Position numbers and translations under genes: made by a program. From a virus, in the IMG/VR virus record IMGVR_UViG_3300011113_000257, positions 32,001-96,000 of that record: a stretch of 64,000 bases of DNA; one strand, given 5' to 3'. Below are positions 10,859-26,122 of the stretch, in pieces; position 1 is the stretch's first letter; each line of letters opens with the position of its first letter. Below the pieces are notes generated by a model. It ran no database searches and was not told the origin of the DNA. It saw only the letters and a list, made by a program, of their open reading frames with translations.

Positions 10859-10929
10859 TTGCTCTCCTTTTTATCGCCCCTTGCGATAGTTCTATCATAA
10901 CACAAGTCTCTGACCTTTGTCAAGTTAAA

Positions 10930-11056
10930 CGCTAGACGCGCCACCGAAAGGGGATAAGGTGACGCGCCTAACATTTATGAGTGGGGAGAAAGGGGGGGCA
11001 ACCCCACTCGTATTCGGAGCATAGGGAGAAGGGAGAAAACCCTCGCTCTACGAACT
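10930..11056 (-). ncRNA. Candidate three-hairpin small RNA with anti-Shine-Dalgarno loops
   Basis: Extended -10 TGCTAAAGT at 11062-11070; three stems with loops TTTTCTCCCTTCT, TTGCCCCCCCTTTCT and TTATCCCCTTTC; no ORF. Confidence 0.7.
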
Positions 11057-11204
11057 CCTCTACTTTAGCATAAAAAAATTTCAGTTATGCCTCCGTGTCG
11101 GAAAATTTAACAATCCCCACAAACTGACTTACTCGAAACCTTTTTCGAGTCAAGCCCAAACCTTTTACCGCATCTCCAACAATTAGTAAAGATAGTCACT
11201 ACCC

Positions 11205-11935
11205 TCACTCCCCAATCTCTGGAATGTCGTAGTCGTTCTGCCAACCGCACTTAGGGCAAGTCCAAACACCGCGCCCCCAGTCGTCAAAAGATACTTCCTC
11301 TGTACCCTCAAACTTGCAGTCAATCTCCGCGCCTGACTGAAACTCAATAATGCCTTTGCACTCTAGGTCATCAATCTCTGCTGAATCCGCGTAGAATCCT
11401 GAACCTCTTAGTGAACCTTCGTAACTCATTTTGTTTCCCTTCTTCTATCGCCCCTTGCGATAAATCTATTTAACCACATAATCTGACTAATGTCAAGTTA
11501 CTTGATAACTGTGCCTGTCCAACCCTCTGGAATTGAGTATTTAGTTTTTAGTGCCGTGTGAAAAGTGTCCACAACTATCTGACAAACACCGTCTAGTATC
11601 TCGTCACTCATTCCGTCAAGGTATGTCCGCAAGTTTTCCTGCAACTGTTCTTGCAATTCAAAAGTATTCATCTTGTTCTCCTTTCAAGAGTAAAGTTCCC
11701 CAACCCTAAATTTCCAAAACATCTAGGGGTGGGGAATCCTTTATTTGTCGTTGATACCTAACAAAGCGAAAATTTCATCTTCGTTCAAGACAGTAACCTT
11801 GTCGCCACTATCATCAACAATTTTTACGCTAGTTACACGGTAAGAGTTAGCAACCAAGTCACGAACTTCTTGCGCCGTGTTAGCGGTAAAACTGTACTCG
11901 TTATCTTTCGACTTCATTGTTACGTTGTAAGCCAT
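11205..11935 (-). CDS. Three small hypothetical genes (11205-11429, about 11500-11671, 11741-11935)
   Basis: Strong RBSs GAAGGGA and GAAAGGAG before each ATG. Confidence 0.65.
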
Positions 11936-11959
11936 TTCGTTCTCCCTTCTTGGCTCTAC

Positions 11960-12152
11960 CCTTCCCGCACTTTGCGGAAAAGTTTTCAGTTTATGAAGTA
12001 GGTAGGTGGCTCTCTCAACCACCTGTATGCGCTTCCCCACGCTTCCTATTCGGCTACCTACTTCAGTATTGACTGGCGAACTACGCACCGCACTCCAGTT
12101 GTAGTTTTCTTACCTAGTGCAAGACCAGTCAAGTCTTTCTCTATTTAGTTAT
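11960..12152 (-). ncRNA. Candidate structured RNA or long structured leader
   Basis: Perfect 12-bp stem 11994-12005/12054-12065 and 8-bp stem 12069-12076/12125-12132, each enclosing sub-helices; own promoter 12158-12187. Confidence 0.5.
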
Positions 12153-12188
12153 GACCCTAGTCTATCATACTAGGTTTGCTTTCGCAAG

Positions 12189-12267
12189 TCCCAAGAGTAG
12201 GAATCGAACCTACCGTGCCAAAGCGAGTGATTTACAGTCACCTTCCCCACCTTGAGGAATCCTTGGG
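12189..12267 (-). tRNA. tRNA-Tyr (GUA), atypical
   Basis: Acceptor CCCAAGG/TCTTGGG+A, anticodon loop CTGTAAA, T-arm GTAGG-TTCGATT-CCTAC, long variable loop; own promoter about 12286-12316; no encoded CCA. Confidence 0.8.
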
Positions 12268-12624
12268 GTTATTTAGTTATGGAACTAGTTTATCATACTA
12301 GTTATCTTTTTGCAAGTTCTTCGATTAATCTTGTTCGGCGTACAACATCTTTCGTACTCCAACCTTGACCAATCTCCGCGCAAGACTCCAAGTAGTAATC
12401 TAAGTCCTGAATTTCATCGTGAAGTTCGTTCACGGTGAGTTCCTCTACTGGTTTGTTTCTTGTAAGCATCTTTGCCCCTTTCGTTCCTCAAGTGTACAAC
12501 ACTTTCCTGACAAATGCAAGTCACGGGAAAAGATAATTTAGCGAAGGCGGGACTCAGAATAAAAAATTTCAGTTTTACCAAAAAAGAAAACCCCCGCAAT
12601 GCGCGAGGGCTTTCCATTTTTAGA

Positions 12625-13466
12625 TTAGTAGTTTTCGTTCACCCAATCCACAACGTCTTGCATTTTATCCGCGCTACGCGCTACCGCTAGAAAGTTTTCA
12701 TCTTCTAGTAATAGGCTTTCGTGAACAGTGGTCTCACCTGCTACGAAACCCAGTACGACTCTTAGATTAAGAGTTGATAGTAGTTGTCCTGTTGCCATTT
12801 TTTCACCCCTTTCCGTGTGATAACACGAGTCTATCATACCTACCTGACATTTGCAACCCTAACGCCCGAGCGTGGTGGGGCTAGTTGCCCCCACCACCGC
12901 ATTCGCCATCGGCGAATTCGAGACAACCGCCACAGCAGTCGTCACAAGTACGCACCCAGATAACATCTAGGGCAGGAATGTGTAGAGTTGAGTGAGTTGA
13001 GGTTGTGTTGCAGAATTGGCATTTGGACATTTGAAACCCCTTTAGGTTTAGTATCAAGACCCCTTGCCTTGATGAATCAAGTCTATCATACCTACCTGAC
13101 ATTTGCAAGCACATAAGAAAACCCCCTCCGTAGAGGGGGCTTTCCAAAGGGGTCGCGCTAGACGTTAAATAGTTTTTGCACGGCGGTTAGTGCCTTTATG
13201 TCTTTACCACCAATGTGCCAATCGTATTGACCGTAGTTAATTCCGCTTTCGTAGTTCTTCCAGTCGTAGATACTCGCGACAAATACTTCGCCAGTTGTTT
13301 CATCTTCAAACTTTAGCAACCATTCTGCCTGTACTTTATCTTCGGTATAGCCCAAGTAGTGTGGCTCTCCCAACTTTTCTACGATAGTCGCGTAGGTTGT
13401 TCTTACATAACCAAGTAGGAAAGTTCCGCTTGTGTCTACAGAATTACTTTTTTCTATGAGTTTCAT
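12625..13466 (-). CDS. Three single-gene cassettes (12625-about 12798, 12881-about 13030, 13158-13466)
   Basis: Each has a TGTCAG promoter, 5' hairpin and AAAGGG RBS; the last carries an ASIYDWK..WHIGG motif. Confidence 0.65.
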
Positions 13467-13624
13467 TTTTTCTCCCTTTCGTGGTATTTCCACTACCTAA
13501 AGTAAACCACTTTATCTGACAAAAGTCAAATCAAATTAAATCCCGCGTGTCCCTAAAAAATTTCAGTTTTACGTTCCCGCACAAAAAAAATAACCCACCC
13601 CGTAGGGTGGGCTACTTTTGTAGA

Positions 13625-14098
13625 TTAGAATCTGCGAGCGCAGACCGGGCCGATACCGCGAGCAACTGATACCTCATCAGTTAATTCACGACCGCAAGCG
13701 CAACATACGCCAAACTGGATACCGTAATCGCAAGCCTGTTCAAGAGTCATCTTGTCATCAGCCGAGATAGCACGGATGTAACTAGGGTCGTACTGGAATG
13801 ACCCACCAACCAACTTGGTTGCGTATGGGCGACCTGACGACTGCGAAATCTTAACGCGGTAGACAGAACCCTCCTTAAAGTAAACGCCGACCTCAAGGGC
13901 GACAACTGGCGCGGTGGTGCGTGGCTCACGCGGTGCGTATGGAAACGACCGCAAAGCGTCAATGACGGAACTAATTTCGCGCTTGGATAGCGCGGTGATG
14001 TCGCCTAAAGAAGCGCGGAACGTGTCCGAAACTGCGCGTGAAGCGAGCAGGGACTGGGCATACGAGATTTGGCTCTCGGTGGCTTGTGTTGTGTTCAT
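13625..14098 (-). CDS. DUF6011-domain protein
   Basis: C-terminal CCACGRELTDEVSVARGIGPVC; N-terminal ATESQI motif; leaderless promoter TTGACT-N17-TAAGGT-N6-ATG. Confidence 0.75.
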   Translation of the reverse strand: MNTTQATESQISYAQSLLASRAVSDTFRASLGDITALSKREISSVIDALRSFPYAPREPRTTAPVVALEVGVYFKEGSVYRVKISQSSGRPYATKLVGGSFQYDPSYIRAISADDKMTLEQACDYGIQFGVCCACGRELTDEVSVARGIGPVCARRF

Positions 14099-14476
14099 AG
14101 AACAACCTTATCAAACAACCTGATAAAAGTCAAGCCAACAACTCATAACTATTTTTTCCGGGCAGCGGCGGCGGCAGAACTGAAATTTTTTATTTCTCCC
14201 GCGCAAGAAAAAAATCCCCACCTTTCGGCGGGGTTCTTTCTTTGGTTTAGGCTCTGGTTAGAAAGCGTTTTCCCTCGTGGCGGTGGAACAATGCGATTCC
14301 GTAGCGGTGGGCTACTTCTTTTCCGCATAAGTAGCAATTTGCTTTCCCGTAAAGTTTTCCAAACATTTTGTTCTCCCTCTATCGGTTACTTCCTGCAACC
14401 TGATAAATCAAGTATAACACACTAACCTGACAAATGCAAGTTAGGTGCGCCAGCCGTAGCCAGCGCACCCGTAACC

Positions 14477-14821
14477 TTAAACGGCTAACCCAAATTCCTT
14501 TAGGAACTCTAATTGCTTTTCGGTAAGTCCAGTAGTTTCGCCCTGTCCGTCATTAGATGTAAGAAATACATCTCCAACGATTATGTCTGTACCAATTCCG
14601 TACTTGTCCCAGAATAACTGAGTTGCAATTCTATTTGGCTCTAGTCCAATTAGTTTGCCCTCTTCGTTTAGCCATAGGTCAATCTCTTCACCTACGACCG
14701 CGCACTCAATCCAACCGTCTACCGCGTTACGAATTACTTCGTAAGACTGTCCAACTGTGAACTCGCGAGTTTCAACTGTGCCGTCTACTCCAATGAATAG
14801 ACCCTTTGCTTTGTCGCTCAT
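14477..14821 (-). CDS. DUF3846-family protein
   Basis: VDGWIE, WLNEEGK..GL..N..AT and DIIVGDV motifs. Confidence 0.75.
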   Translation of the reverse strand: MSDKAKGLFIGVDGTVETREFTVGQSYEVIRNAVDGWIECAVVGEEIDLWLNEEGKLIGLEPNRIATQLFWDKYGIGTDIIVGDVFLTSNDGQGETTGLTEKQLEFLKEFGLAV

Positions 14822-15144
14822 TTGCTTCCCTTTCTCTGTGGTACTTCCACTAAAAAATAATAACACATCTCCCTGACATTTGCAAATTATCTTTTCCGCG
14901 TGTCCCCTGACCTAAAAAATTTCAGTTATCTAACTCAGCGCAAAAAGAACCCCGCACTTTCGCACGGGGAACTTTTTGTTTGGTTAAAGTATTTCTCCTA
15001 CTGTTGCTTCCTCGCAAGGGTCGCAAATCCAACCCTCTACTCCGTGCTGGTCAAAAGGAATCATAGTGTCCTTGCATTCAACGCATACAACGTATTTTGT
15101 CCCGTCTGTAGACGTAGCAACTAAACTATCTAATGCGTTCATCT

Positions 15145-17452
15145 TTACACCTCCCCTGCTTCTAAAGTTTCAAAGTAGTTGTTCACATCAACAATCGAGC
15201 AAGGCTCGCATTGTTCATAACCTCCGTCAAGACTGAACTTGTCTAGCGCGTTACCGCACTCTACGCACTTCTCATCTTCGCCTAGTGCTTCTTCCGCACC
15301 GCGTAGTAGCCATTCATCAAATCCTTGTAGCACTTTGCTACCTCCCTTTCTTGTATTCCCATTGTAGCGCATTAGCCTGACATTCGCAAGTTACCGCGCA
15401 AAAAGAAAGAGCGAGCCTTTCGGCTCGCCCCTCCTAGAGTTTAGTAAGTAGCAAAGGTTCGATTAGAGCCTAAGTCCTTAGCAAATTCGTAGATGTGTTC
15501 AAGGTTGATTGTTTTGCTTTCGCCCTTGTTGTTGAAAGCAACCGTGTCGCCTTGAAAGTAACGATACTTTTCCCAACCAACCGAGATAATTACCGCAACC
15601 CAGTCGTCTTGTAGGTGTCGCTTGAATACTTCTGCCCAGTCTACCTCGACAGTTTCATCTTCTTCTTCACTCCACACACTCCATAGGTTTGCTTCACCGT
15701 CTGGGTCAGCGTCAATAAATCCGTAAAGTGTTACGCCGTCTTTCTCTTGCGTAATTACTTCAACAGGATAGTTTGCAAGTTCTGTCTTAAACGCTTCCGC
15801 GTCTTTAACTGCAAAGTAGTTGCTTCGTGCCTGACCAAAAAATTGAGCCATTTCTTATCCCTTCCGCAAGTAAGCCCTTCTTACTCGCTGTATCTATAAT
15901 ACTAAATTACTTGACTATTGTCAAACTCTCCTTGTAAGAGTCCGCAACTTTTGCACACGAAATCATCTATCTCAAGTTCGTAAAAGTATCTGTGCTCGCA
16001 GTCTACGCGCCAAATTGAATAACACTCGCAAGCAAAACAACGGTGCTTATCTTCGCCGAGTTCGATTACCTCATCTTTTTGGATAATCCAATTACAAGTA
16101 TCACACCGAAAAGATTTCACTTTTTCATTCGAGTTGTTGCTGACGTAAATCCATTCCTCTGACATTAATCGTTCCCTTGTTCATAGCAGTTGTAGCAAGT
16201 CCAACCGCTTTCGATTAGGTCATCATCTAGCAAGTCGCATTGGCAGTTTATGGTGTCCGCGTTCATTAGAACACTCTCCCATACTCGTTTTCAACTACTG
16301 ATAAATCAACAGGTGATGTAACTTCCCATTGTTCGTATGGTGTTGGGTCGTAACTATCTCGGCATTCGTTACACCATAGTTCGGGAAACCAACGGTGCTT
16401 TTTAGACATTTCGGCGATTGGAAAGTCTTGTTCGCAATCCACGCAAAAATCGTTTTCTTCTGGTATTTCAACTCCAAGCCATTGTGTCATTTTGTTCTCC
16501 TTTTTGTTTTCGCGGGCTATCCGCTTAGTAATACTTTATCATACTATTTTGTTTGGTGCAAGTAGTAGGGGGCTTGCGCCCCCCACCGCATTTGCTAAAC
16601 GTATTCACATACTAGTTCTAGTAAATCCGCGTAAGTTTCTACCCCATTTAATAAGCCGTAGATAGCGTCTGTTAGTTCTGTAGAGTTCCTGATAGTTTCA
16701 ACTAGCAAACTTTCCTCAACTAGCAAGTCACCTGCAAGACAACGAATTGTCATTTCTGCACTCATTTTGGTTTCCCTTTCTTGTAAGGAGTTTCCTTACA
16801 TTTCTAATAGTACGGACTTTCTTGACATTTGTCAAGTGATTACGCAAACTCGTTTATTGCGTGTCGGCGTTGGGCAGACCTGTCACGATTACGGCGTGTA
16901 CGCCTATCCGCAAACTTTGCAGACTTTTGGTTTAGGACATAGTTCCCTCGACCTGTCACTAGATTGTCTAGTGGACTCTTGCGCTTAGCCATCTCTGACT
17001 CCTTTCGATAAATCTATTGTAGCACACTTCCCTGACATTATCAAATCGAACCGCGCTCGGCGTGTCGCAATTTAATAATCTCCGTAAAAAATTTCAGTTA
17101 TGAAAATAAGAAAACCCCCACTTTTGGTGGGGGCTTCCTTGCCTTACATAAATCGGTGGTAGAACTCTACTACCTTTTCCCGTGCCTCTTTCCAGTCTGC
17201 CGTAGCGCAGATAGTGACTGTCTGCTCGATACCATTCACATCATCTACCCAACCTATGGCTTCATAGATAGTCACGCCGTCATCATAGTCATAGACCCTG
17301 ACTTCGGCATCTACCGTTTCGTTCATCTCGATAGTGATTGCGTTGTCTGTTACTGGGTTAAGTAGCACCCGTGTAATTCGACTTGCTGGGTGGCGTAGCG
17401 TGGCTAGAAATAATCTAGTGGTTTCGCTGTATGTTGGAATTGTAGTTTCCAC
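15145..17452 (-). CDS. Run of small acidic / Cys-rich hypothetical genes (incl. 15145-about 15336, 15441-15851, 15902-16165, 16266-16490, 17144-17452)
   Basis: ORF track plus cassette signals; several further ORFs under 60 aa with clear RBSs. Confidence 0.65.
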
Positions 17453-17585
17453 TTTTGTTTTACCCCTTTTGAGTTATCTACCGCGCCTTGCGGTATGTAG
17501 TAATCGTATCATACCTTTATGACATTTTCTGTATTTCGAGAAAATAAACCCCGCCCGTAGGCGGGGCTTATCTCGAGTATCCGCA

Positions 17586-18101
17586 TTAGCAGATAGAGAA
17601 CCCACCGCTTTCGGCTAAGAACTCCGCGAACTCGCGTACGTTCTGAACATCAAACGGGTAACTTGCTGCCCAATTCTCTTTTGAGCCAACACCGTCACAA
17701 CCATTACACCAGCCGAACTCGCGCCCGACAAGGATAGCCACTTCTGGTGATAAGGCTCGGTCAGGCTGACCCGCACTCACGCCAACTTCATCTGTACGAA
17801 TACCTGTTGAATTGCAGTGCTTACAATCCTCGCGTGGTAAATCCGCAATCTCTGCGTAGTAGTCTTTTTGGTACTGGGCGGTATGTCCTCGACCAATCTT
17901 TTCAAACAAGATGTTTGATAAAGCAATCGCGCCTTCGGCGTTTAGCCCATCTCCATCATTGTATTCACCACTTACTTCTGAAGTAAGTTCAGGTGCAACT
18001 TCAATGCAGTAATTCCAAAGTGGTCGCCACCACCATACATTGTTGCGGAAGTATTCACCGCGCTCTGTTGTCGGTGCAGTTCCAAAAACGTCCATTCCCA
18101 T
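17586..18101 (-). CDS. Hypothetical protein with DnaJ-like CxxCxxxG Zn motifs
   Basis: MGMDV..YFRNNVWWWRPLW; CKHCNSTG and CNGCDGVG; start set by RBS GAAGGGA. Confidence 0.7.
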   Translation of the reverse strand: MGMDVFGTAPTTERGEYFRNNVWWWRPLWNYCIEVAPELTSEVSGEYNDGDGLNAEGAIALSNILFEKIGRGHTAQYQKDYYAEIADLPREDCKHCNSTGIRTDEVGVSAGQPDRALSPEVAILVGREFGWCNGCDGVGSKENWAASYPFDVQNVREFAEFLAESGGFSIC

Positions 18102-18655
18102 TTGGGTTTCCCTTCTGTAAGCAAGTCCCTCTTGCTCACTCTGTGAGTTTATCATACTAGCCTGACATTCGCAACTCAAACGAAAAACTTTTTTCGTGTC
18201 GCCATAACTGAAATTTTTTAAGTAGGCAACAAAAAATCCGCGCAATCTTCCGCGCGGACTTTCTTTTGTTTAGAACTTGTAGGTGATGTTAAAGTCTTTC
18301 CGCGTGAACGGGATAAAGGTTTCCCCGTACTCCACATCTCCAGCGTAATTTGTACCGATTTCGTAGCGAACTACAATCTCATCATTCTCTACGAACACGC
18401 TAACTAATTCTGAAAGATAACTTGTAGTCGCGTAATCTCTCCAGTTAGTTGTGATGTCCTCGATAGCGGTGTCTATTGTGTCATACAAAACTTCGCCGTC
18501 TACTTCGATAATGTCTATTGTTCTCACGTCTGACATTTTGTTTCCTCTCTTTCGCAACCCCTTGTTGCTAGTACCTAGCGTACCCTACTTCCCTGACATT
18601 TGCAAGTTGAAAAAGGGGCGAGTTTCCCCGCCCCCTTTTCGTGCGCCCTCCGCGC

Positions 18656-19129
18656 TTACCAAGAACTCTTGTAAGCAAAACTCCAGCCCTCTGGAACTTT
18701 AGAGAGTATGCGCCCAAGTTGAACAAGGGTATCTTCAACCTGTTCCCAATACCACTCGTCAATCTCATACGAGCCGAAGAAGAAACCTGCTTGAGTTGGT
18801 AGCAATTCTTCCGCCAACTCTTTGTTCTTGCTTTTCCAAACTTTCATACAGACATCATTTAATTCCTGCAACTGCTCTCGGCTAACGTAATACTCCGCGC
18901 AATTATCTTCACCCTCTTGCACGTTGTCCACGAACCATTGGTGTATCTGGTTAGCCTTGCGCCAGTAGCCAACTTTTACCTTGACCGTAATTGACGGGTA
19001 CTCCTCGTTCTCGAAATCTCCTGCGCCAATCGCATCAGAAACTTTTGCGTATGCATCTCTGGTTGCTTGTTCTTGCCATTCGCCACCTGATAGGTAGTTA
19101 CTTGCATAAAGGTACTGGTCTAGTCCCAT
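18656..19129 (-). CDS. Conserved phage hypothetical protein
   Basis: MGLDQYL..YWRKANQIHQWF..LLPTQAGFFFG..YKSSW. Confidence 0.75.
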   Translation of the reverse strand: MGLDQYLYASNYLSGGEWQEQATRDAYAKVSDAIGAGDFENEEYPSITVKVKVGYWRKANQIHQWFVDNVQEGEDNCAEYYVSREQLQELNDVCMKVWKSKNKELAEELLPTQAGFFFGSYEIDEWYWEQVEDTLVQLGRILSKVPEGWSFAYKSSW

Positions 19130-19297
19130 TTTGTTTTCCCTTCCGTAAGCAAGTCCGTCTTGCTCACTCTGTAAGTTTATCATACTAGCCTGACATTTGC
19201 AACCTGAACGCGAAACTATTTTTTCCGCGCCCGCGCCAGAAAAAATTTCAGTTTTCAATTTGAGATAAACGCGGATTTCTCCGCGCTCTCTCGTTTG

Positions 19298-21656
19298 TTA
19301 TTCGACTTCGTTATCCGCAAGGATTTGCTTGACGGCTTCAATCGCTTCCTCTAGAGTTTCGCAAACTTCCCACCACTCATCGTCAGCCTTTGGCTCATAG
19401 AACTCAAACCAATTATTATTCACCCAGACATCTTGCTCTGCGTGTGCCGTGTTGAACTCTGCCAACTTCGTGTCCGTGTCAATCCCTGCGGAGATTAGGT
19501 CGCTTGTGTAACGCCAGACATCTCCGTTAGGTAGGTTGATACGCATCTCGCCGTTAGACCCAATGTGAAACTCTCGGTCGCCCGACTTAACTACGGCTAG
19601 AACTTCCCAGCCGTTAGTCCAGCAATAGAACGCCGAGTCTGTCTGCTCTGGGTTCTGCTCTACTAAATACTCAACCGTGTAATCCATCACGCCACCTAGT
19701 CCTCGTCTGACTCAACTCGGACACCGCAAGTAAAACACTTTAAGTTTTCCCAGTCAGGGTACTCGTAGCAAGTATCGTGGATACAGTCGTTAGTATCGAA
19801 CACCGCGCCAAGTAGTTCCAACAAACCGTCAAGGTACTCTACGGGGAACGCTTTCATCTCGCCGTACTTTGACGGTAAGGAAACAACTCCCGACATAATG
19901 TCCTCTGAAAGTTCCGCAAGAAAGTCAAACTGCTCTTGCAACATTTCATAGTCAATGTTTTTCATTTTGTTTTCTCCCCATTGAGTTCTAGCAACACCGC
20001 ATTTAGAGTGTCGTAAAGTTCTTCGTCTTTTGCGTAGTTCGCATCATTGTCAATCGCGTGAGTCCACTCATTTGTTGCCGTGTCGTAAACAGTTCCGTCA
20101 AAGTAACGAGTTTCATTTTCAATGTTCCACTTGCCTGTTTCGGTATCGAAACACACTACATAGTGATGCTGTGTAGTTGAGGGGTAGTAACCCTGCTCGC
20201 CTTCACAAGTTTTGCAGAACGGTGTGCAGTCGAAACCGCCCCCGTGTTCTGGACACTCAACCATTTCTAGTTTGCTCATTTTGTTTCCCTTTCTTAGAGT
20301 GAGTCCCTCTCGCTCTATGATAAGTATACGCCCCTAGCCTGACATTTGTCAAATCAGGGGCGCACACCGCGTGTTACCAATTCAGTTCTTCGCCATTCTC
20401 GTCTTGGAAGATTAAGTCACTCGTATCTGCCGTGTGACCCCAACCGCAACTAAAGTCATTCTCAATCCACACTTCAACTCTCTGCATAATGTCCCACAGG
20501 GTTATTTCACTATGTGGAGTTTCAGTTTCCGCGTGTATGTCGTTAGCAATCTGGTTTACGTCATACGAGACAACTTTCATCACGTTAATGCGTTCTGGTA
20601 ATTCTCTCATTATTTCTCCATTCCGTGTCCAACGTGGACTAATCTAATTTCTGGCTCGCCGACTTCGATTCCCCAGCCATTCTTTAGTAGTTCTAATGCT
20701 TCTTCTTCGCTAGTGCAAAGTTTAAGATTCTTAGAGTCAATCTCTAATGTCTTGATTACTTGAAACTCGTAACGCATTTGGTTTCCCTTCCTTAGCAAGC
20801 CCTTCTTGCTAATAACTCTATGATACATCAATACCCTGACATTTGCAACTTGAACACGAAATTATCTTTTCCCGTGCCTTCGCTGAGTTCCGCATAAAAA
20901 ATTTCAGTTTTGTGAAACCAAGAAACCCCTAGCCTTTCGGCTAAGGGCATCTTTTGGATTAGGCGGTGATTAGTCCCTCGTCTATCAAGGTGCTGGCAAT
21001 TCTGCCGTAAGAACCTTGCAGTTGCCACGCTAGTCGCGTATCAACTAGTTGCTGAAACAAGTTAATTGTTTCTTCTCTGTCAAGATTACCTTCTTCGAAC
21101 TCGATGATTAAGTTCGTGATGTCGTGTAGTGACATTTGCTTCCCTTTCGTATTCGCCGTACTTCGGCTTATGTAGTAAGGATACACTAAACCCCTGACAT
21201 TTGTCAAGGGCTTAGTGTCCCGTGTCTTTAGTCTTCTTCTTCGTACTCATCTTCGTCTTCGTCTTCGTCTTCGTCTTCGTCTTCACGGCATCTGTCGCAG
21301 ATTGAGTCATAGTCCGCGCCAGACTCGCCACATAGTTGGCAAAACTCGTCTTCGTATCCCTGTGGGATTATGCTTTCGTATCCCTCGTTAGGGTCGTCCT
21401 CGTTAGTTGCTACTGATTGCACAAACTTTAGCCCGCAAGAGCCTTCGTACCAACGCTTGACTAGGGTAAGCATTTCGTCAGGGGTTGAGTCGGTAACAAG
21501 GAAACTTCCGTCCTCGCCATAGCCCCACTCTGCACTCTGCTTGACTTGCTGGTCGTCTTTCAAGATGTAAATCTTGTGACAACCATCAAACGAGATGCCT
21601 TTGGCTTCGTCAAGTTCTGCCTTAACTTCGTCCCAGATGTCTTGGAAAGTAGTCAT
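19298..21656 (-). CDS. Run of small acidic hypothetical genes (19298-19690, 19696-19965, 19962-20279, 20374-20610, 20610-about 20777, 20959-about 21135, 21228-21656)
   Basis: ORF track and RBSs; the last gene ends in a poly-Asp/Glu tract encoded by (GTCTTC)n at about 21250-21285. Confidence 0.65.
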
Positions 21657-21889
21657 TTTGATTTCCCTTTCTATCAGTAAGCCTTTCTTGCTGATAAAAC
21701 TATCATACCACACTATCCTGACATTACCTAATCGGGGCTTTAGCGCGTGTCGCAGAAAAAATTTCAGTTATCTAAAATTACGAAACCCGTACCAAAAAAA
21801 TTTCAGTACGGGCTTCGCTTAGAAACTGTCGGAAGGCTGACACACGCTGGAAGGACGATACCCCCCGACAGGGCTTATGGGTTATTCAA

Positions 21890-23698
21890 TTATCCGTTAC
21901 GGTTTCCCATAGCGGTTAGTGCTTTCGCACACGCTTGTCCGATAGCGTTGGACGCTTCCGTTGGAGAAGCCACACCGCTTAACGGCTCTACCGTTGTCCC
22001 CCTTAGGAGACTTCTGGCACTTGAACCGTTGTCGAACGGTATCCATACTACCGCCACGCCGTTGCTCTCACACTGCGACACCCAACTCCGAGCCTTTTGG
22101 GTCTCGTCGTAAGTGTACACGCCGTCGGATACCACGACTAAAAGCCTAGCACCGTCACCGTTGAGCAGGTTCAACTCGCCGTCTATTGCCTTGAACGCCT
22201 TGTCAAACTTTTCCGTACCGTCTGGTGCTGTGTACACCGTTACGTCCGTTAAGTGCTGACCAGACTTGAGCGTAGGGAACACGTCGTCGCCGTAGTACAC
22301 CATCGCGCACTTGCCTTGGACTCGCCGAGTTGCTTCCGACATTACCCACGCCGTTGTCGCCATCGGTTGCATCGCCGAATTCATCGAACCGCTAATGTCT
22401 ACCATCACGCCGACCTTTAGTGTTGGCTCGTCCGTTGTCTTACGGACTCGCTTACGCCAAGGTTGCGCCGTTGGTTGCATACCTATCGCCTTGTGTGCTT
22501 CGTTCTGCATAGCCGAGCGAGTTCGTAGCCGTCCACCGGGAACAATGCTACGCACTTCAACAACATCGCGCTCGCGATACTTTGCACGCTCTAATGCGCT
22601 CGCCACTTTCACCGCGCTGATACGCTCGTCTGCCGTAGGCTTACGAACCTCTGTTGCATAACTACGAGTACGAGTAGATGCTGATGGACCAGTACCTCGC
22701 CCGAAAACTTCTTGAGCAACTTTAACATTCTCACGACTTTGCTTTGCACTGTCCGCGCGATTCTTAACTTCCTCTTTCCATTCCTCTGACTCCTCTTGGT
22801 CTGCAAGTTCGGAGTAGTTAGACACCGCAACATTTTCAGATGCTTCTTTCAACTTCTCAAGTAACTCTTTTAATGCTTCGCCAACTTCAGATGTAGACTC
22901 ACCACTTCCACCAGAAGTACTTTCACTACCAGAATTATCCTCGCCACGTTCGTTTGCAAGGTCGCGAACAATCTGTGCCCACTCACGCGCTAATGGATAA
23001 ACAGGTTCCATGTTTCGATGGTCTGTGTGTGTAATGAAACGCTCGATAACACTGCATAACTTTTCAACAGTTTCGTTGCCTAAGTATTCCTCTATAAATT
23101 CTGTAACCTCTAGAACATCATCACGCTCTAAAATTCCACCAATGATTCGACCATGCACTAGTCCAACTAAAGTTGCAATGTTTGAAACACTACCCTGTGT
23201 CAAATCCTCTGACTCAAAATCTGCAATAACAATTTCCATTGCACTTGAGCATAGAAATGCGCGATACCGAGCATCAAGCAAAATACCTTGTGCTTCGATT
23301 CGTGATTCCTCAAGAAGCATTAGTGCTTCGTACTCGTCTGACTTTAATGCTTCGTAAGCAGACTCTAAACTCCACTTCGAGAAACGAGCGTGAAATGCTT
23401 CGTGCATTATCGCGCCAGTTGCCTTTGGAAATTCGTACTGCGTTGAGCGTTGATTAATGTCGCTAATGTGTTCTGGCTTAATGCCAAACCCGAAAGCAAT
23501 TTCTGTGTTCACTTCAATTTCTGCAATCGCTGGCTTGTAGCACGCTGGCGCATTGCTACCTGCAACAGGAGATGCAAGTCCAACTAAATCACCGCGACCT
23601 GCGATTGAGTTTGCTAGTTGCGCAATCTGCGAACCAACTGCATACCATTCTGGATGTCTTTCACCAGAAGTCTTACTGTGTGTGTCAATGTGTGCCAT
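21890..23698 (-). CDS. VWA-domain protein with HExxH metallopeptidase-like N-terminus (CobT-like)
   Basis: HEAFH, LEESRIE; MIDAS DISGSM, GT, VVVSDG; start set by RBS GGAAGGAG. Confidence 0.85.
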   Translation of the reverse strand: MAHIDTHSKTSGERHPEWYAVGSQIAQLANSIAGRGDLVGLASPVAGSNAPACYKPAIAEIEVNTEIAFGFGIKPEHISDINQRSTQYEFPKATGAIMHEAFHARFSKWSLESAYEALKSDEYEALMLLEESRIEAQGILLDARYRAFLCSSAMEIVIADFESEDLTQGSVSNIATLVGLVHGRIIGGILERDDVLEVTEFIEEYLGNETVEKLCSVIERFITHTDHRNMEPVYPLAREWAQIVRDLANERGEDNSGSESTSGGSGESTSEVGEALKELLEKLKEASENVAVSNYSELADQEESEEWKEEVKNRADSAKQSRENVKVAQEVFGRGTGPSASTRTRSYATEVRKPTADERISAVKVASALERAKYRERDVVEVRSIVPGGRLRTRSAMQNEAHKAIGMQPTAQPWRKRVRKTTDEPTLKVGVMVDISGSMNSAMQPMATTAWVMSEATRRVQGKCAMVYYGDDVFPTLKSGQHLTDVTVYTAPDGTEKFDKAFKAIDGELNLLNGDGARLLVVVSDGVYTYDETQKARSWVSQCESNGVAVVWIPFDNGSSARSLLRGTTVEPLSGVASPTEASNAIGQACAKALTAMGNRNG

Positions 23699-23835
23699 CT
23701 CTGGCTCCTTCCTTTTGTACGCCCCTTTGACGTACTCTGTGAGTTTATCATACCTTCTTGATATTTCCAAATTGAAGGGTGGGGAGTCGGGAAACACTCA
23801 CGAAAACCGACTCCCCTTAGCAAGGATGAAAGGGA

Positions 23836-24867
23836 CTAAATCCTTGCTGGCTTGTATTCCGCACCAAACACGCGAGACAGAACATCTGCCACGATTGGTC
23901 TGTCCATCTCTGGTGCAGAAGCAAGTAAGTTCGAGATACCAAACGGAACCCCGAATGTTGTAACGATGTCGCGGAACGCTAAAAGTTCGCGCATCTGTGG
24001 AGCCCACGAGACTTCACCAGACTCTTGTTTCTTAGCAAGATTCTGCGCAACAGTAACGAGGTTGCTAGGTACACCTAAGGTGCGAGCAAGTGACCAGTCA
24101 GTTGCCATCTCTGCTTGAACAGTAAAGCGAGATAGTAAGGCTTCTGAAAGTCGTACTCCCGGAGCATTAGGGTTAGTTGCACCCACAACATAAAAGTCAG
24201 GGTGAACCTTAACAGTACCTCTGTCAGGATTAGCAGTGACAGTAATTTCGCCACGTCCATCCATCACGCCATACAAACCTGAAAGTTGCTTAGGGTCAAT
24301 CAGACCAATCTCGTCAATGAACAAGACTGCACCTTCCTCTACTGCTCGCACAAGTGGACCATCTACCCACTCGAAACCACCAGCAGGATTCTGTACGAAC
24401 CCACCAAGGAAGTCTGACATTTCGATGTCAGCAGTTCCAAGTACTGTGTACATATTTCCACCAAACGCTGCTTCGACTAATGCAGTCTTACCAGTTCCCG
24501 GTGCGCCATAAAGCAACGCGAACATTGGCGAGCCAACTTTGTCTGTGACAGACAAGGTAGTTGCTTCACGAGCCTTGCGTAATGTTGCAACATCTTGATG
24601 TTCACCCCAAGTACGAGCGTGGTACACACTTCCATTTGGACGAATGTATTGACTACTACTTGATTCAAGTGTGACACCTGATGTTGTAATTGGTGTCGCT
24701 ACGCGAGCAACGCGAGGTGCGCGTTCTACGAAACGACCTTGTGGTAAAACCTGCGAGATTACTCTCATAGATGCTTCTGTTGATACTGACTGCGCAACCA
24801 TGTCGTCTAACATGGAAGTGAATTCAGTTCCCCACTTTGAATAAATTTCATTTTCTTTGATGCTCAT
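23836..24867 (-). CDS. MoxR/CobS-type AAA+ ATPase
   Basis: Walker A GAPGTGKT, WVDGPL, Walker B LFIDEI, ATNP, LSEALLSRF. Confidence 0.9.
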   Translation of the reverse strand: MSIKENEIYSKWGTEFTSMLDDMVAQSVSTEASMRVISQVLPQGRFVERAPRVARVATPITTSGVTLESSSSQYIRPNGSVYHARTWGEHQDVATLRKAREATTLSVTDKVGSPMFALLYGAPGTGKTALVEAAFGGNMYTVLGTADIEMSDFLGGFVQNPAGGFEWVDGPLVRAVEEGAVLFIDEIGLIDPKQLSGLYGVMDGRGEITVTANPDRGTVKVHPDFYVVGATNPNAPGVRLSEALLSRFTVQAEMATDWSLARTLGVPSNLVTVAQNLAKKQESGEVSWAPQMRELLAFRDIVTTFGVPFGISNLLASAPEMDRPIVADVLSRVFGAEYKPARI

Positions 24868-24883
24868 AATTTTCAGTCCCTTT

Positions 24884-25351
24884 CTACGCTGTGAACATTT
24901 CTGGATAAGATAATGCAGTTCGAGTCTGGTTGATTCGATGCACGACCTTAGTTGGAGTCTTACCTTCTGTTACATCTGTCAAGTCTTTCTGTGAAACTTC
25001 CACAAAAAATGGCTTGCCAATAAGTACGCTACTAATTGAAACGCGCTTCATAAACCACGCTAGTGTTTGAAGTCGCTCCTCGCGATGGTTCTCTGATGTA
25101 ACCCCTGTTGCTGGGTCTACGAGACTACGCTGAAGTGCTTGCACCTTCCATTGTTTCTTTGGCTGTGATGCCGAAAGACGACGATAGTAGACACGCGCTG
25201 TCGAAAAATTTCCAAGTTCATTCCAACCATCTGGAGTAATGAACATCTGAAAAATCTGTTGGTATTCATTCTTGAATTCCGCGTACAAGGCTGTGCCCTG
25301 TACTTTCTTTTCTGGGTCTGTAAGCAGACCAAGAGGTGTTTCTGTTGACAT
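24884..25351 (-). CDS. Hypothetical protein, first gene of the MoxR operon
   Basis: RBS GAAAGGA; promoter TTGACT-N17-TAAACT at about 25398-25426. Confidence 0.7.
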   Translation of the reverse strand: MSTETPLGLLTDPEKKVQGTALYAEFKNEYQQIFQMFITPDGWNELGNFSTARVYYRRLSASQPKKQWKVQALQRSLVDPATGVTSENHREERLQTLAWFMKRVSISSVLIGKPFFVEVSQKDLTDVTEGKTPTKVVHRINQTRTALSYPEMFTA

Positions 25352-25475
25352 AGTGAGTATTTCCTTTCTTTATGTCTTTTGTCCCTGTGACATTTCTAGT
25401 TTAGCATAACGCTATGATGGAGTCAAATCGGGGTAGGAGTATGTCTAAGGAGACCTACCCCGACCTGACTTCTAA

Positions 25476-25808: not shown

Positions 25809-26122
25809 TTTGGCGATTCCCCTTTCAAGGAAAGTTCGATAGACCATCTAACGAACAGTTCTAACTTTACGCCCTACACCTGACATTTGTCAAATCGAGC
25901 GTTTCCACCCCGATTTCTCGGGCTGTTTTCGTTCATAGAACCAATGTAACACATTACCCTGACATCCGCAAGTTTATTTGATAACGATTTGATAACGGAC
26001 CGGGAACTGAAATTTTTTAGTTCCGGGTTGTTGAAGGCGGGCTCCAATAAAAAATTTCACTTTTGGGCAAAAAGAAACCCCCGTTCGAAACTCACTGGTT
26101 TCGATTTAACGGGGGTTGGTCT

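What the first reader, a model, noticed from the sequence alone, without database searches (positions are those of the whole stretch)
23781..23848. Two 3'-UTR hairpins whose loops match the RBSs of the two genes of their own operon
Seen: the operon (promoter about 25400, gene 24884-25351, MoxR 23836-24867) ends in two perfect stems. Stem AGCAAGGAU/AUCCUUGCU has loop UUAGUCCCUUUC, which pairs over all 12 nt (one G-U) with the MoxR RBS GAAAGGGACUGA (24873-24884). Stem GGGGAGUCGG/CCGACUCCCC has a loop with GUGAGUGUUUC(C), which pairs over 12 nt (one G-U) with GGAAAUACUCAC just before the first gene's ATG (25353-25364), mostly non-SD spacer bases. One loop per gene with only wobble differences is hard to attribute to chance. 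Inference: the finished mRNA, or its released 3' fragment, silences its own cistrons, giving a pulse of translation; this recalls 3'-5' fold-back in type I toxin mRNAs.
Basis: partly seen in the sequence, partly recalled or inferred. Interest (0 to 1): 0.9.

Follow-up and report, generated by a model that had tools for sequence, protein, structure and literature searches.

The report
Phage mRNA hairpins targeting own RBSs
Two RNA hairpins just after a phage ATPase gene carry in their loops the complements of the ribosome-binding sites of the two upstream genes, and compensating mutations keep this match in dozens of related phages, so it is very likely a real long-range RNA pairing on translation of a kind with few natural examples.

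Summary
Hairpin 1 (23848-23819) has a loop that pairs with the MoxR-like gene's RBS over 13 nt with one G-U. Hairpin 2 (23816-23781) has a loop that pairs over 12 nt with one G-U with the SD-to-ATG spacer of the first gene (gene A). Each match is the best complement of its loop within about 3 kb either side.

I compared 145 homologous loci in 68 lineages (MoxR 55-97% identical). Both pairings are kept by compensatory changes. Each loop matches its own locus better than other loci (0 of 50,000 permutations). Its best complement in the whole locus falls at the predicted start site in 11 of 43 loci for hairpin 1 and 25 of 66 for hairpin 2, against about 1-2 expected.

The partner follows operon structure. 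Where a promoter separates gene A from MoxR, hairpin 1 loses its anti-RBS loop and hairpin 2 tends to target MoxR's own leader.

The hairpins are not the operon end. They lack a U-tract, and a promoter and a third gene (CobT-like) follow.

The most likely mechanism is cis 3'-to-5' sequestration of the RBS, as in icaR. The regulatory outcome is untested. I class it as a new variant of a known kind. Other first-reader notes on this genome had flagged two similar hairpins.

The parts
25398..25426 (-). Promoter of the gene A-MoxR unit (TTGACT, 17 nt, TAAACT with an upstream TG; part of the TATGMTAAAST family)
   Evidence: Consensus scan; motif family found 7 times on the minus strand
25353..25364 (-). 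Target of the hairpin 2 loop: GGAAATACTCAC, covering the end of the SD and the spacer of gene A, 2 nt before the ATG
   Evidence: covaries with the hairpin 2 loop in relatives
24884..25351 (-). Gene A, 155 aa, no Pfam or PHROG family; conserved directly upstream of MoxR in nearly all relatives
24872..24884 (-). Target of the hairpin 1 loop: GAAAGGGACTGAA, the SD and spacer of MoxR; it starts at the last base of gene A's stop codon TAG (24886-24884)
23836..24867 (-). MoxR/CobS-like AAA+ ATPase, 343 aa (Pfam AAA_5; phrog_16448 and phrog_249)
23819..23848 (-). Hairpin 1: 9-bp stem whose 5' arm is the last MoxR codons; the 12-nt loop TTAGTCCCTTTC contains the stop codon and the anti-RBS
23781..23816 (-). 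Hairpin 2: 10-bp G-rich/C-rich stem with a 16-nt loop TTTTCGTGAGTGTTTC carrying the complement of the gene A start region; no U-tract follows
23742..23770 (-). Internal promoter for the third gene (TTGGAA...TATGATAAACT)
21890..23698 (-). Third gene, 602 aa. Its counterpart at the same position in phage DSL-LC01 is annotated 'cobalamin biosynthesis protein' (CobT-like; a vWA domain is my inference from that name). No Pfam or PHROG hit here
21826..21871 (-). Hairpin 3 after the third gene: 12-bp stem and 22-nt loop with TCCTTCC (complement of the gene's SD GGAAGGA) and GTGTGTCA (complement of codons 4-6). In relatives its loop matches the third gene's RBS, but mostly a generic RBS
21780..21818 (-). 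Canonical intrinsic terminator (18-bp stem plus T-run): the real end of the module

Best explanation
The mRNA of a conserved three-gene phage module (gene A, a MoxR/CobS-like ATPase, a CobT-like protein) folds back on itself. The loop of hairpin 1, which starts with the MoxR stop codon, pairs with the MoxR Shine-Dalgarno region about 1.05 kb upstream. The loop of hairpin 2 pairs with the SD-to-ATG spacer of gene A about 1.56 kb upstream.

Shown here: both pairings are under selection, specific to their locus, and follow operon structure.

Inferred: the pairing hides each ribosome-binding site once the 3' part of the RNA has been made. Translation would then be efficient only while the message is still being transcribed, or while ribosomes keep the duplex open. 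Two ribosome events must each melt the hairpin 1:RBS duplex: termination at gene A's stop codon, which abuts the MoxR SD, and termination at the MoxR stop codon, which is inside the loop. MoxR output would therefore be coupled to gene A translation and to its own ribosome traffic. Gene A, whose partner hairpin 2 is never translated, would be shut off after a delay. The expected net effect is a self-limited, stoichiometric burst of these proteins.
For: (1) Own sequence: 13-nt and 12-nt complements with one G-U each are the best hits of each loop within 3 kb upstream and 1.5 kb downstream. Shuffle p is 1.4e-4 and 7.7e-4. Duplex energy is -20.5 and -18.4 kcal/mol.

(2) Compensatory changes for hairpin 1 against the MoxR RBS. 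In L086 (91% identity) the RBS changes GGGAC to GGGAT and the loop changes GTCCC to ATCCC, which also turns the stop codon TAG into TAA. Other clades: L090 GAAGGAGATTA/TAATCTCCTTC (11 nt Watson-Crick), L017 GGGAGGATGG/CCATCCTCCC, L021 AAAGTGAGG/CCTCACTTT, L100, L110 and L121 9 nt each, L023 ACAGGGAGA/TCTCCCTGT.

(3) Compensatory changes for hairpin 2 against gene A. L068 has ACACCCAA/TTGGGTGT where this phage has ATACTCAC/GTGAGTGT. L085 has 12 nt Watson-Crick, L114 15 nt, L147 14 nt covering the start codon, and L023 CACCTAGC/GCTAGGTG.

(4) Controls. Self beats cross-locus pairing in 0 of 50,000 permutations for both loops. The best complement in the whole 6-7 kb locus falls in the predicted start window in 11 of 43 loci (about 0.9 expected, p about 1e-9) and 25 of 66 loci (about 1.7 expected, p about 7e-23).

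(5) Operon logic. With a gene A-MoxR gap of 35 nt or less, a hairpin 1 anti-RBS of at least 7 nt is present in 17 of 33 loci. With a promoter-sized gap it is present in 1 of 15 (p = 0.003). Hairpin 2 prefers gene A 21:8 in the first group and 3:7 in the second (p = 0.027).

(6) Specificity matrix of top hits. Hairpin 1: MoxR 6, gene A 3, third gene 1. Hairpin 2: gene A 10.5, MoxR 2.5, third gene 0.

(7) A stem of at least 9 bp follows the MoxR stop in 60 of 68 lineages, against 13% of control windows.

(8) Published precedent: distal anti-SD sequences pair with the RBS, block initiation and promote decay (icaR, PMC3868564; B. subtilis 8-mer screen, PMC12697547).
Against: No expression, structure-probing or end-mapping data exist for this RNA.

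Pairing every base of a 12-nt loop to a target is sterically impossible with the stem intact. Either only about 7-9 bp form or the stem opens.

Some clades lack one pairing: the L010/L022 clade has a 3-5 nt hairpin 1 loop, and L016, L017 and L021 have tetraloop-like hairpin 2 loops. Neither pairing is therefore indispensable.

The hairpin 1 loop also matches gene A's SD better in self than in cross comparisons, so phage-specific SD 'dialects' contribute part of the signal.

In distant clades the hairpin 2 target motif is shared by several transcripts' 5' ends, and a weaker copy lies just downstream of hairpin 2. The partner is therefore not always unique.

The direction of the effect (repression, protection or coupling) is inferred only.
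Confidence: 0.6

Rival explanations
1. The same cis 3'-to-5' pairing exists, but its role is protective rather than repressive. It would shield the purine-rich start region or the transcript 5' end from RNases when no ribosome is bound, stabilising the mRNA (hbs-like), or it would hold the RBS next to the stop codon so that terminating ribosomes re-initiate.
For: In distant clades the hairpin 2 target lies about 7 nt after the -10 box, at the extreme 5' end of the transcript and upstream of the SD. That is where 5'-end-dependent RNases act. The hbs 5'/3'-UTR interaction modulates RNase Y cleavage (PMC5737220). The MoxR stop codon is itself part of the hairpin 1:RBS duplex.
Against: In this phage and its nearer relatives the targets cover the SD, the spacer and sometimes the start codon itself. 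This is the classic geometry for blocking initiation. Distal anti-SD sequences were found to destabilise, not stabilise, mRNAs in B. subtilis (PMC12697547).
Confidence: 0.2
2. The hairpins are processed into a stable 3'-derived small RNA that acts in trans on several phage leaders carrying the same motif, serving as a temporal switch on a set of early or middle genes.
For: In distant clades the loop motif occurs once per 7-kb locus, while its complement sits at the 5' end or start region of 3-9 transcripts of the same phage. Stable G+C-rich stems would protect such a fragment.
Against: In this phage and its close relatives the target motif is essentially unique to gene A's start region (for example L068 has one copy). 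Partner choice follows the transcription-unit structure, which a trans-acting RNA would not require. There is no evidence of processing.
Confidence: 0.12
3. The hairpins are ordinary intercistronic stabiliser or terminator-like stem-loops. The complementarity would reflect generic anti-SD-like pyrimidine loops plus chance.
For: The loops are pyrimidine-rich and any such loop complements some SD. The hairpin 1 loop also scores above cross-locus background against gene A's SD. Hairpin 3's loop mostly matches a generic RBS.
Against: The matches extend into non-SD bases (CTGA, ATGG, GTGA, ATACTCAC) and covary. Within-locus top-hit enrichment is 12-15-fold. Hairpin 2 targets the spacer, not the SD. 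No U-tract follows, although the phage uses many canonical terminators.
Confidence: 0.04
4. The matches are DNA-level inverted repeats, either half-sites of a DNA-binding protein or recombination boundaries of a mobile MoxR cassette.
For: The repeats bracket the MoxR coding sequence (hairpin 1 and the RBS) and the gene A-MoxR pair (hairpin 2 and the start region). A further copy of the hairpin 2 target overlaps the next promoter's -35 in some clades.
Against: Many different sequence pairs are used across lineages, which a protein site would not tolerate. G-U (G-T) positions are accepted only in the RNA sense. The elements sit in hairpin loops and on RBSs. All 145 loci have the same gene order and orientation, and no joints were seen.
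Confidence: 0.04

Closest known systems
icaR mRNA 5'-UTR/3'-UTR pairing in Staphylococcus aureus (PMC3868564)
   Same: A pyrimidine-rich anti-SD motif located 3' of the stop codon of the same mRNA pairs with that gene's SD region. In icaR this was shown to block initiation-complex formation and create an RNase III substrate.
   Different: icaR is one monocistronic bacterial gene with a long 3'-UTR. Here there are two (possibly three) dedicated hairpins in a phage polycistronic unit, each loop addressed to a different cistron. One loop targets the spacer and start codon rather than the SD, the stop codon lies inside one loop, and the support is covariation across 68 lineages. No experiment has been done here.
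Long-range anti-SD-like sequences that repress B. subtilis mRNAs (Gill et al. preprint, PMC12697547)
   Same: aSD-like 8-mers hundreds of nucleotides downstream pair with the RBS, inhibit initiation and promote decay.
   Different: Those were synthetic substitutions, and such sequences are depleted from natural genes. Here natural anti-RBS sequences are conserved, displayed in hairpin loops and co-evolve with their targets, which implies selection for the interaction.
hbs mRNA 5'/3'-UTR interaction in B. subtilis (PMC5737220)
   Same: A long-range pairing between the two ends of one mRNA couples ribosome occupancy to RNase access.
   Different: The hbs pairing modulates an RNase Y site in the 5'-UTR rather than occluding the SD. 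It is a single gene, not loop-presented.
Long-distance RNA interactions controlling cistron translation in RNA phages (MS2 and Qbeta; Qbeta in PMC2978339; MS2 from my own knowledge)
   Same: Start sites of cistrons in a polycistronic phage RNA are controlled by pairing with sequences about 1 kb away, and ribosome transit opens them (translational coupling).
   Different: Those are ssRNA genomes in which the partner lies inside an upstream coding region. Here the phage is dsDNA and the partners are downstream hairpin loops at cistron ends.
hok/sok-type type I toxin mRNA fold-back
   Same: The 3' end of the full-length mRNA pairs with the 5' translation-activation region and keeps the mRNA translationally inert.
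   Different: There is no toxin ORF, no antisense RNA and no known 3' processing step. The genes are an ATPase module.

Membership tests
icaR-type 3'-to-5' anti-SD self-pairing | Anti-SD-like motif located downstream of the stop codon on the same transcript | tested here: met
   The hairpin 1 loop TTAGTCCCTTTC begins at the stop codon. Same strand, with no terminator between the promoter and the hairpins.
icaR-type 3'-to-5' anti-SD self-pairing | Base complementarity to the gene's own SD region, beyond generic SD/anti-SD | tested here: met
   13 nt with one G-U. It is the top hit within 3 kb upstream and 1.5 kb downstream. Self exceeds cross-locus pairing, and within-locus top hits number 11 of 43.
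icaR-type 3'-to-5' anti-SD self-pairing | The interaction inhibits initiation-complex formation and/or triggers RNase III cleavage | not testable with these tools
   Needs toeprinting, reporter assays or RNase assays.
Intrinsic (Rho-independent) terminator | G+C-rich hairpin with a short loop, followed directly by a U-tract | tested here: not met
   The loops are 12 and 16 nt. After hairpin 2 comes ACCCTTCAATTTGG. The scan lists no terminator here, while canonical terminators abound elsewhere, for example at 21818-21780.
Type I toxin mRNA fold-back (hok-like) | Small toxic ORF plus a cis antisense RNA, with 3' processing that releases the fold-back | tested here: not met
   The cistrons are a 155-aa protein and an AAA_5 ATPase. 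No Rfam family is found in the window.
Translational coupling by long-range SD sequestration (RNA-phage type) | The downstream cistron's SD is hidden in a long-range helix that an upstream ribosome must open | tested here: inconclusive
   Gene A's stop codon abuts or overlaps the paired MoxR SD (TAGaaagggac, TAAgggag). A terminating ribosome would therefore melt the duplex. The dependence itself is not testable here.
Any curated Rfam RNA family | Match at the gathering threshold | tested here: not met
   0 matches in the 64-kb window.

The most novel reading that the evidence does not exclude
A modular 'closed-loop' translation control in dsDNA phage operons. Each cistron ends in a hairpin whose loop holds that cistron's own ribosome-binding site. 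Initiation is then licensed only co-transcriptionally or by a ribosome terminating next to the duplex (one out, one in). This would set both the timing and the stoichiometry of the gene A / MoxR / CobT-like proteins without any protein regulator. In the more distant phages a single loop may address a leader motif shared by many transcripts.
Probability: 0.25. Interest if true: 0.85.

Novelty: new variant of a known kind. Interest (0 to 1): 0.74.

Why it matters
Natural long-range interactions between a bacterial mRNA's 3' region and its own ribosome-binding site are known from only a handful of cases. The 2025 preprint PMC12697547 lists three. Distal anti-SD sequences are generally selected against.

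Here a whole family of aquatic actinobacterial phages keeps such sequences, presents them in dedicated hairpin loops, addresses a separate loop to each cistron, and co-evolves loop and target. This gives a comparative, covariation-backed case that 3'-to-5' mRNA self-pairing is a selected regulatory device in phage operons.

It also offers a compact, testable system of two loops and two RBSs with natural compensatory variants. It can be used to study how transcription timing and ribosome traffic gate translation. An isolated relative, phage DSL-LC01, has the same module but only a weak 6-7 nt hairpin 2 match.

Tried and rejected
Rfam at gathering threshold: nothing in the window.

RNAalifold on 25 aligned 3' regions: MAFFT could not align stems that differ entirely in sequence and length, so the consensus fold was empty. 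I replaced it with per-sequence hairpin calling against control windows.

Public RNA runs: only assembled contigs were available. One metatranscriptome contig from a 90-95% relative spans 23683-24636, bridging both hairpins and the next promoter. DNA carry-over cannot be excluded, and contigs show no ends or levels. This is not used as evidence.

Downstream gene's leader as the partner of hairpin 2: only a weak signal (5.83 against 5.35). The 48 nt right after hairpin 2 give an intermediate signal (6.38 against 5.68), partly because the motif overlaps the -35 TTGACA. Both are weaker than the upstream leaders.

Generality in this phage: the large-loop hairpins at 25470-25421 and 26117-26076 do not match the RBS of their own preceding gene, and the paired hairpins at 11009-10926 give only generic SD-like 8-9-nt complements. 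The rule is not genome-wide.

Hairpin 3: self beats cross-locus pairing, but the within-locus top hit falls at its own start in only 2 of 27 loci. I treat it as consistent but not specific.

N-terminal extension of the third gene from GTG 23797 in the hairpin 2 loop: the frame is open, but a promoter and a strong SD plus ATG at 23698 make it unlikely. I did not pursue it.

An antisense ORF (23852-24118, plus strand) with the loop acting as its SD: the spacing is 15 nt and it would not explain the covariation.

Full report
CONTEXT. The window is bases 32001-96000 of a 110,857-bp uncultivated virus record with 43.7% G+C. Its only relative in the phage collection is Actinomycetia phage DSL-LC01 from lake water. 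Bases 1-31,000 of the window are a minus-strand block of small early genes. These are driven by a repeated promoter family and mostly closed by canonical tetraloop terminators with U-tails.

OBSERVATION. The minus strand reads as follows.
- A promoter lies at about 25426-25398.
- Gene A (155 aa, 25351-24884) follows.
- Sixteen nucleotides later comes a MoxR/CobS-like AAA_5 ATPase (24867-23836).
- Hairpin 1 (23848-23819) has a 5' arm made of the last MoxR codons. Its 12-nt loop TTAGTCCCTTTC contains the stop codon.
- Hairpin 2 (23816-23781) has a 16-nt loop TTTTCGTGAGTGTTTC.

Both hairpins are in the minimum-free-energy and centroid folds.

Shuffled loops reach these scores in 27 and 153 of 200,000 trials. 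The duplexes are about twice as stable as SD:anti-SD pairing. Each match is the best complement of its loop within 3 kb upstream and 1.5 kb downstream.

CORRECTION OF THE FRAMING. The hairpins do not end the operon. No U-tract follows hairpin 2. A promoter of the same phage family (23770-23742) and a 602-aa gene (23698-21890) follow at once. The counterpart of that gene at the same position in DSL-LC01 is annotated 'cobalamin biosynthesis protein', that is CobT-like. The module ends at a canonical terminator (21818-21780). The hairpins are therefore intercistronic.

COMPARATIVE TEST. I fetched 80 viral and 80 metagenomic loci that encode MoxR homologues of 55-97% identity. Of these, 145 were usable, and they collapse to 68 lineages. 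Gene A precedes MoxR almost everywhere. A stem of at least 9 bp follows the MoxR stop in 60 of 68 lineages, against 13% of control windows. The stem sequences differ completely between clades.

The loops track the start regions. For hairpin 1 against the MoxR RBS:

| Locus | RBS | Loop | Note |
|---|---|---|---|
| L086 (91%) | GAAAGGGATT | AATCCCTTTC | Compensatory C-to-T and G-to-A; stop codon becomes TAA |
| L090 | GAAGGAGATTA | TAATCTCCTTC | 11 nt Watson-Crick |
| L017 | GGGAGGATGG | CCATCCTCCC | |
| L021 | AAAGTGAGG | CCTCACTTT | |
| L100 | GGATGGTCA | TGACCATCC | |
| L110 | CCAAGGAGT | ACTCCTTGG | |
| L121 | ACGGAGGAC | GTCCTCCGT | |
| L023 | ACAGGGAGA | TCTCCCTGT | |

For hairpin 2 against gene A:

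| Locus | Gene A start region | Loop | Note |
|---|---|---|---|
| L068 | ACACCCAA | TTGGGTGT | |
| This phage | ATACTCAC | GTGAGTGT | Two double changes and one wobble relative to L068 |
| L085 | GGAAAACACTCA | TGAGTGTTTTCC | 12 nt Watson-Crick |
| L114 | GGAAAACACCCAATG | its complement | 15 nt |
| L147 | GACACCCATGGCAG | its complement | 14 nt across the start codon |
| L023 | CACCTAGC | GCTAGGTG | |

CONTROLS.
(a) Cross-locus permutation. Hairpin 1 against the MoxR start region scores 5.83 for self and 4.40 for cross pairs. Hairpin 2 against the gene A leader scores 7.60 and 5.70. Hairpin 2 against the MoxR leader scores 7.29 and 5.69. All three give 0 of 50,000 permutations.

One caveat applies. 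Hairpin 1 also beats background against the 'wrong' gene A leader (5.68 against 4.70), so phage-specific SD flavours contribute to the signal.

(b) Within-locus test, which is immune to that caveat. The single best complement of the loop in the whole 6-7 kb locus lies in the MoxR start window in 11 of 43 loci (about 0.9 expected, p about 1e-9). For hairpin 2 it lies in the gene A or MoxR start window in 25 of 66 loci (about 1.7 expected, p about 7e-23).

(c) Specificity matrix of top hits. Hairpin 1: MoxR 6, gene A 3, third gene 1. Hairpin 2: gene A 10.5, MoxR 2.5, third gene 0.

OPERON LOGIC. In 33 lineages gene A and MoxR are 35 nt or less apart. In 15 a promoter-sized gap separates them.
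- A hairpin 1 anti-RBS of at least 7 nt is present in 17 of 33 against 1 of 15 (Fisher p = 0.003).
- Hairpin 2 prefers gene A 21:8 in the first group. In the second group it prefers gene A in 3, MoxR's own leader in 7, with 5 ties (p = 0.027).

So the last hairpin tends to address the first cistron of its own transcription unit, and hairpin 1 addresses MoxR mainly when MoxR is an internal cistron. This is the expected pattern for a cis-acting RNA interaction.

COMPLICATIONS.
- In the distant clades the hairpin 2 target lies about 7 nt after the -10 box, at the transcript's 5' end. It is shared by 3-9 transcripts per locus, while the loop motif occurs once. A trans or multi-target role cannot be excluded there.
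- In some closer clades a further copy of the target overlaps the next promoter's -35.
- Some clades lack one of the loops.
- The third gene's own 3' hairpin (21871-21826 here) also matches its RBS better in self than in cross comparisons (0 of 50,000; up to 14 nt in L075). It mostly complements a generic RBS.
- Other large-loop hairpins in this phage do not match their own genes.

MECHANISM. Selection for loop-to-start-region base pairing is shown. The rest is inferred.

The geometry covers the SD, the spacer and sometimes the start codon. Published work shows that distal anti-SD sequences block initiation and promote decay (PMC3868564, PMC12697547). Together these point to RBS sequestration once the 3' segment has been transcribed, about 1.05 kb and 1.56 kb after the respective start sites.

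Gene A's stop codon abuts the paired MoxR SD, and the MoxR stop codon lies inside the hairpin 1 loop. A ribosome terminating on either gene must therefore open the hairpin 1:RBS duplex. This suggests coupling of MoxR translation to gene A and to its own ribosome traffic. Hairpin 2 is never translated and would close gene A's start site for good.

A protective (hbs-like, PMC5737220) or trans-acting role remains possible.

COMPARISON AND NOVELTY. The closest known case is the icaR 3'-UTR/SD interaction. The elements here meet its sequence-level criteria, but the functional criterion cannot be tested with these tools. They are not intrinsic terminators, because the U-tract is absent. They are not type I toxin fold-backs, and they match no Rfam family.

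The new features are these:
- the anti-RBS sequences are presented in dedicated hairpin loops;
- there is one loop per cistron within a polycistronic dsDNA-phage unit;
- one loop targets the spacer and start codon rather than the SD;
- the stop codon is embedded in one loop;
- the pairing is conserved with covariation across 68 lineages.

I class it as a new variant of a known kind, with high confidence in the pairing (about 0.85-0.9) and moderate confidence in the regulatory outcome (about 0.6).

Earlier first-reader notes on this genome had flagged the neighbouring hairpins at 25421-25470 and 21826-21871 as antisense-like. I verified the 11-nt complement claimed for the former by reading the sequence, and I tested the latter as hairpin 3.

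Noticed in passing
window 25421-25470 (minus strand): A 17-bp hairpin sits after gene 25808-25476, and its 3' arm overlaps the -35 of the gene A promoter. CATACTCCTAC (loop running into the stem) is the exact 11-nt complement of GTAGGAGTATG, the SD and start codon of gene 26311-26123, which lies two genes upstream across a terminator. It does not match its own gene's RBS.
   Followed up: partly
window 10926-11009 (minus strand): Two adjacent large-loop hairpins have strongly anti-SD-like loops (TTGCCCCCCCTTTCT and TTATCCCCTTTC). They lie directly downstream of a promoter copy at about 11072, with no obvious ORF between. This may be a small RNA carrying two anti-SD loops.
   Followed up: no
window about 11000-21000 (minus strand), e.g. 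upstream of the starts at 20777, 20279, 19129, 18101, 15851, 11429: Many early leaders share a short hairpin with a purine-rich loop (AAGGG, AGGGA, ACGGA) immediately 5' of an SD of the type GAAGGGAAA. The stems differ between copies.
   Followed up: no
window 25408, 23752, 19184, 18156, 16543, 12297, 11072 (minus strand): A repeated extended -10 motif TATG(A/C)TAAA(C/G)T, each with a TTGnnA-like -35, defines a phage promoter family. The 23752 and 18156 copies continue identically as CACAGAGT; the 19184 copy reads TACAGAGT.
   Followed up: partly
L071, L050, L065, L075, L043 (whole loci): In distant relatives every promoter (ctaaag..tataat or cctgatataat types) is followed about 7 nt later by a phage-specific 7-9-nt leader motif (ACCCACTAC, CCACCACA, CAACCTAC, AACGACGAA). 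The single hairpin after MoxR carries its complement, so one loop may address many transcripts.
   Followed up: partly
window 26076-26117 (minus strand): A terminator-like hairpin with a U-tail has an unusually large 22-nt loop containing GTGAGTTTC, which resembles the hairpin 2 loop motif GTGAGTGTTTC.
   Followed up: no
window 23797 (minus strand): The reading frame of the 602-aa gene stays open upstream to a GTG inside the hairpin 2 loop (the ORF list gives 635 aa). This is probably not used, since a promoter and a strong SD plus ATG lie at 23698.
   Followed up: no
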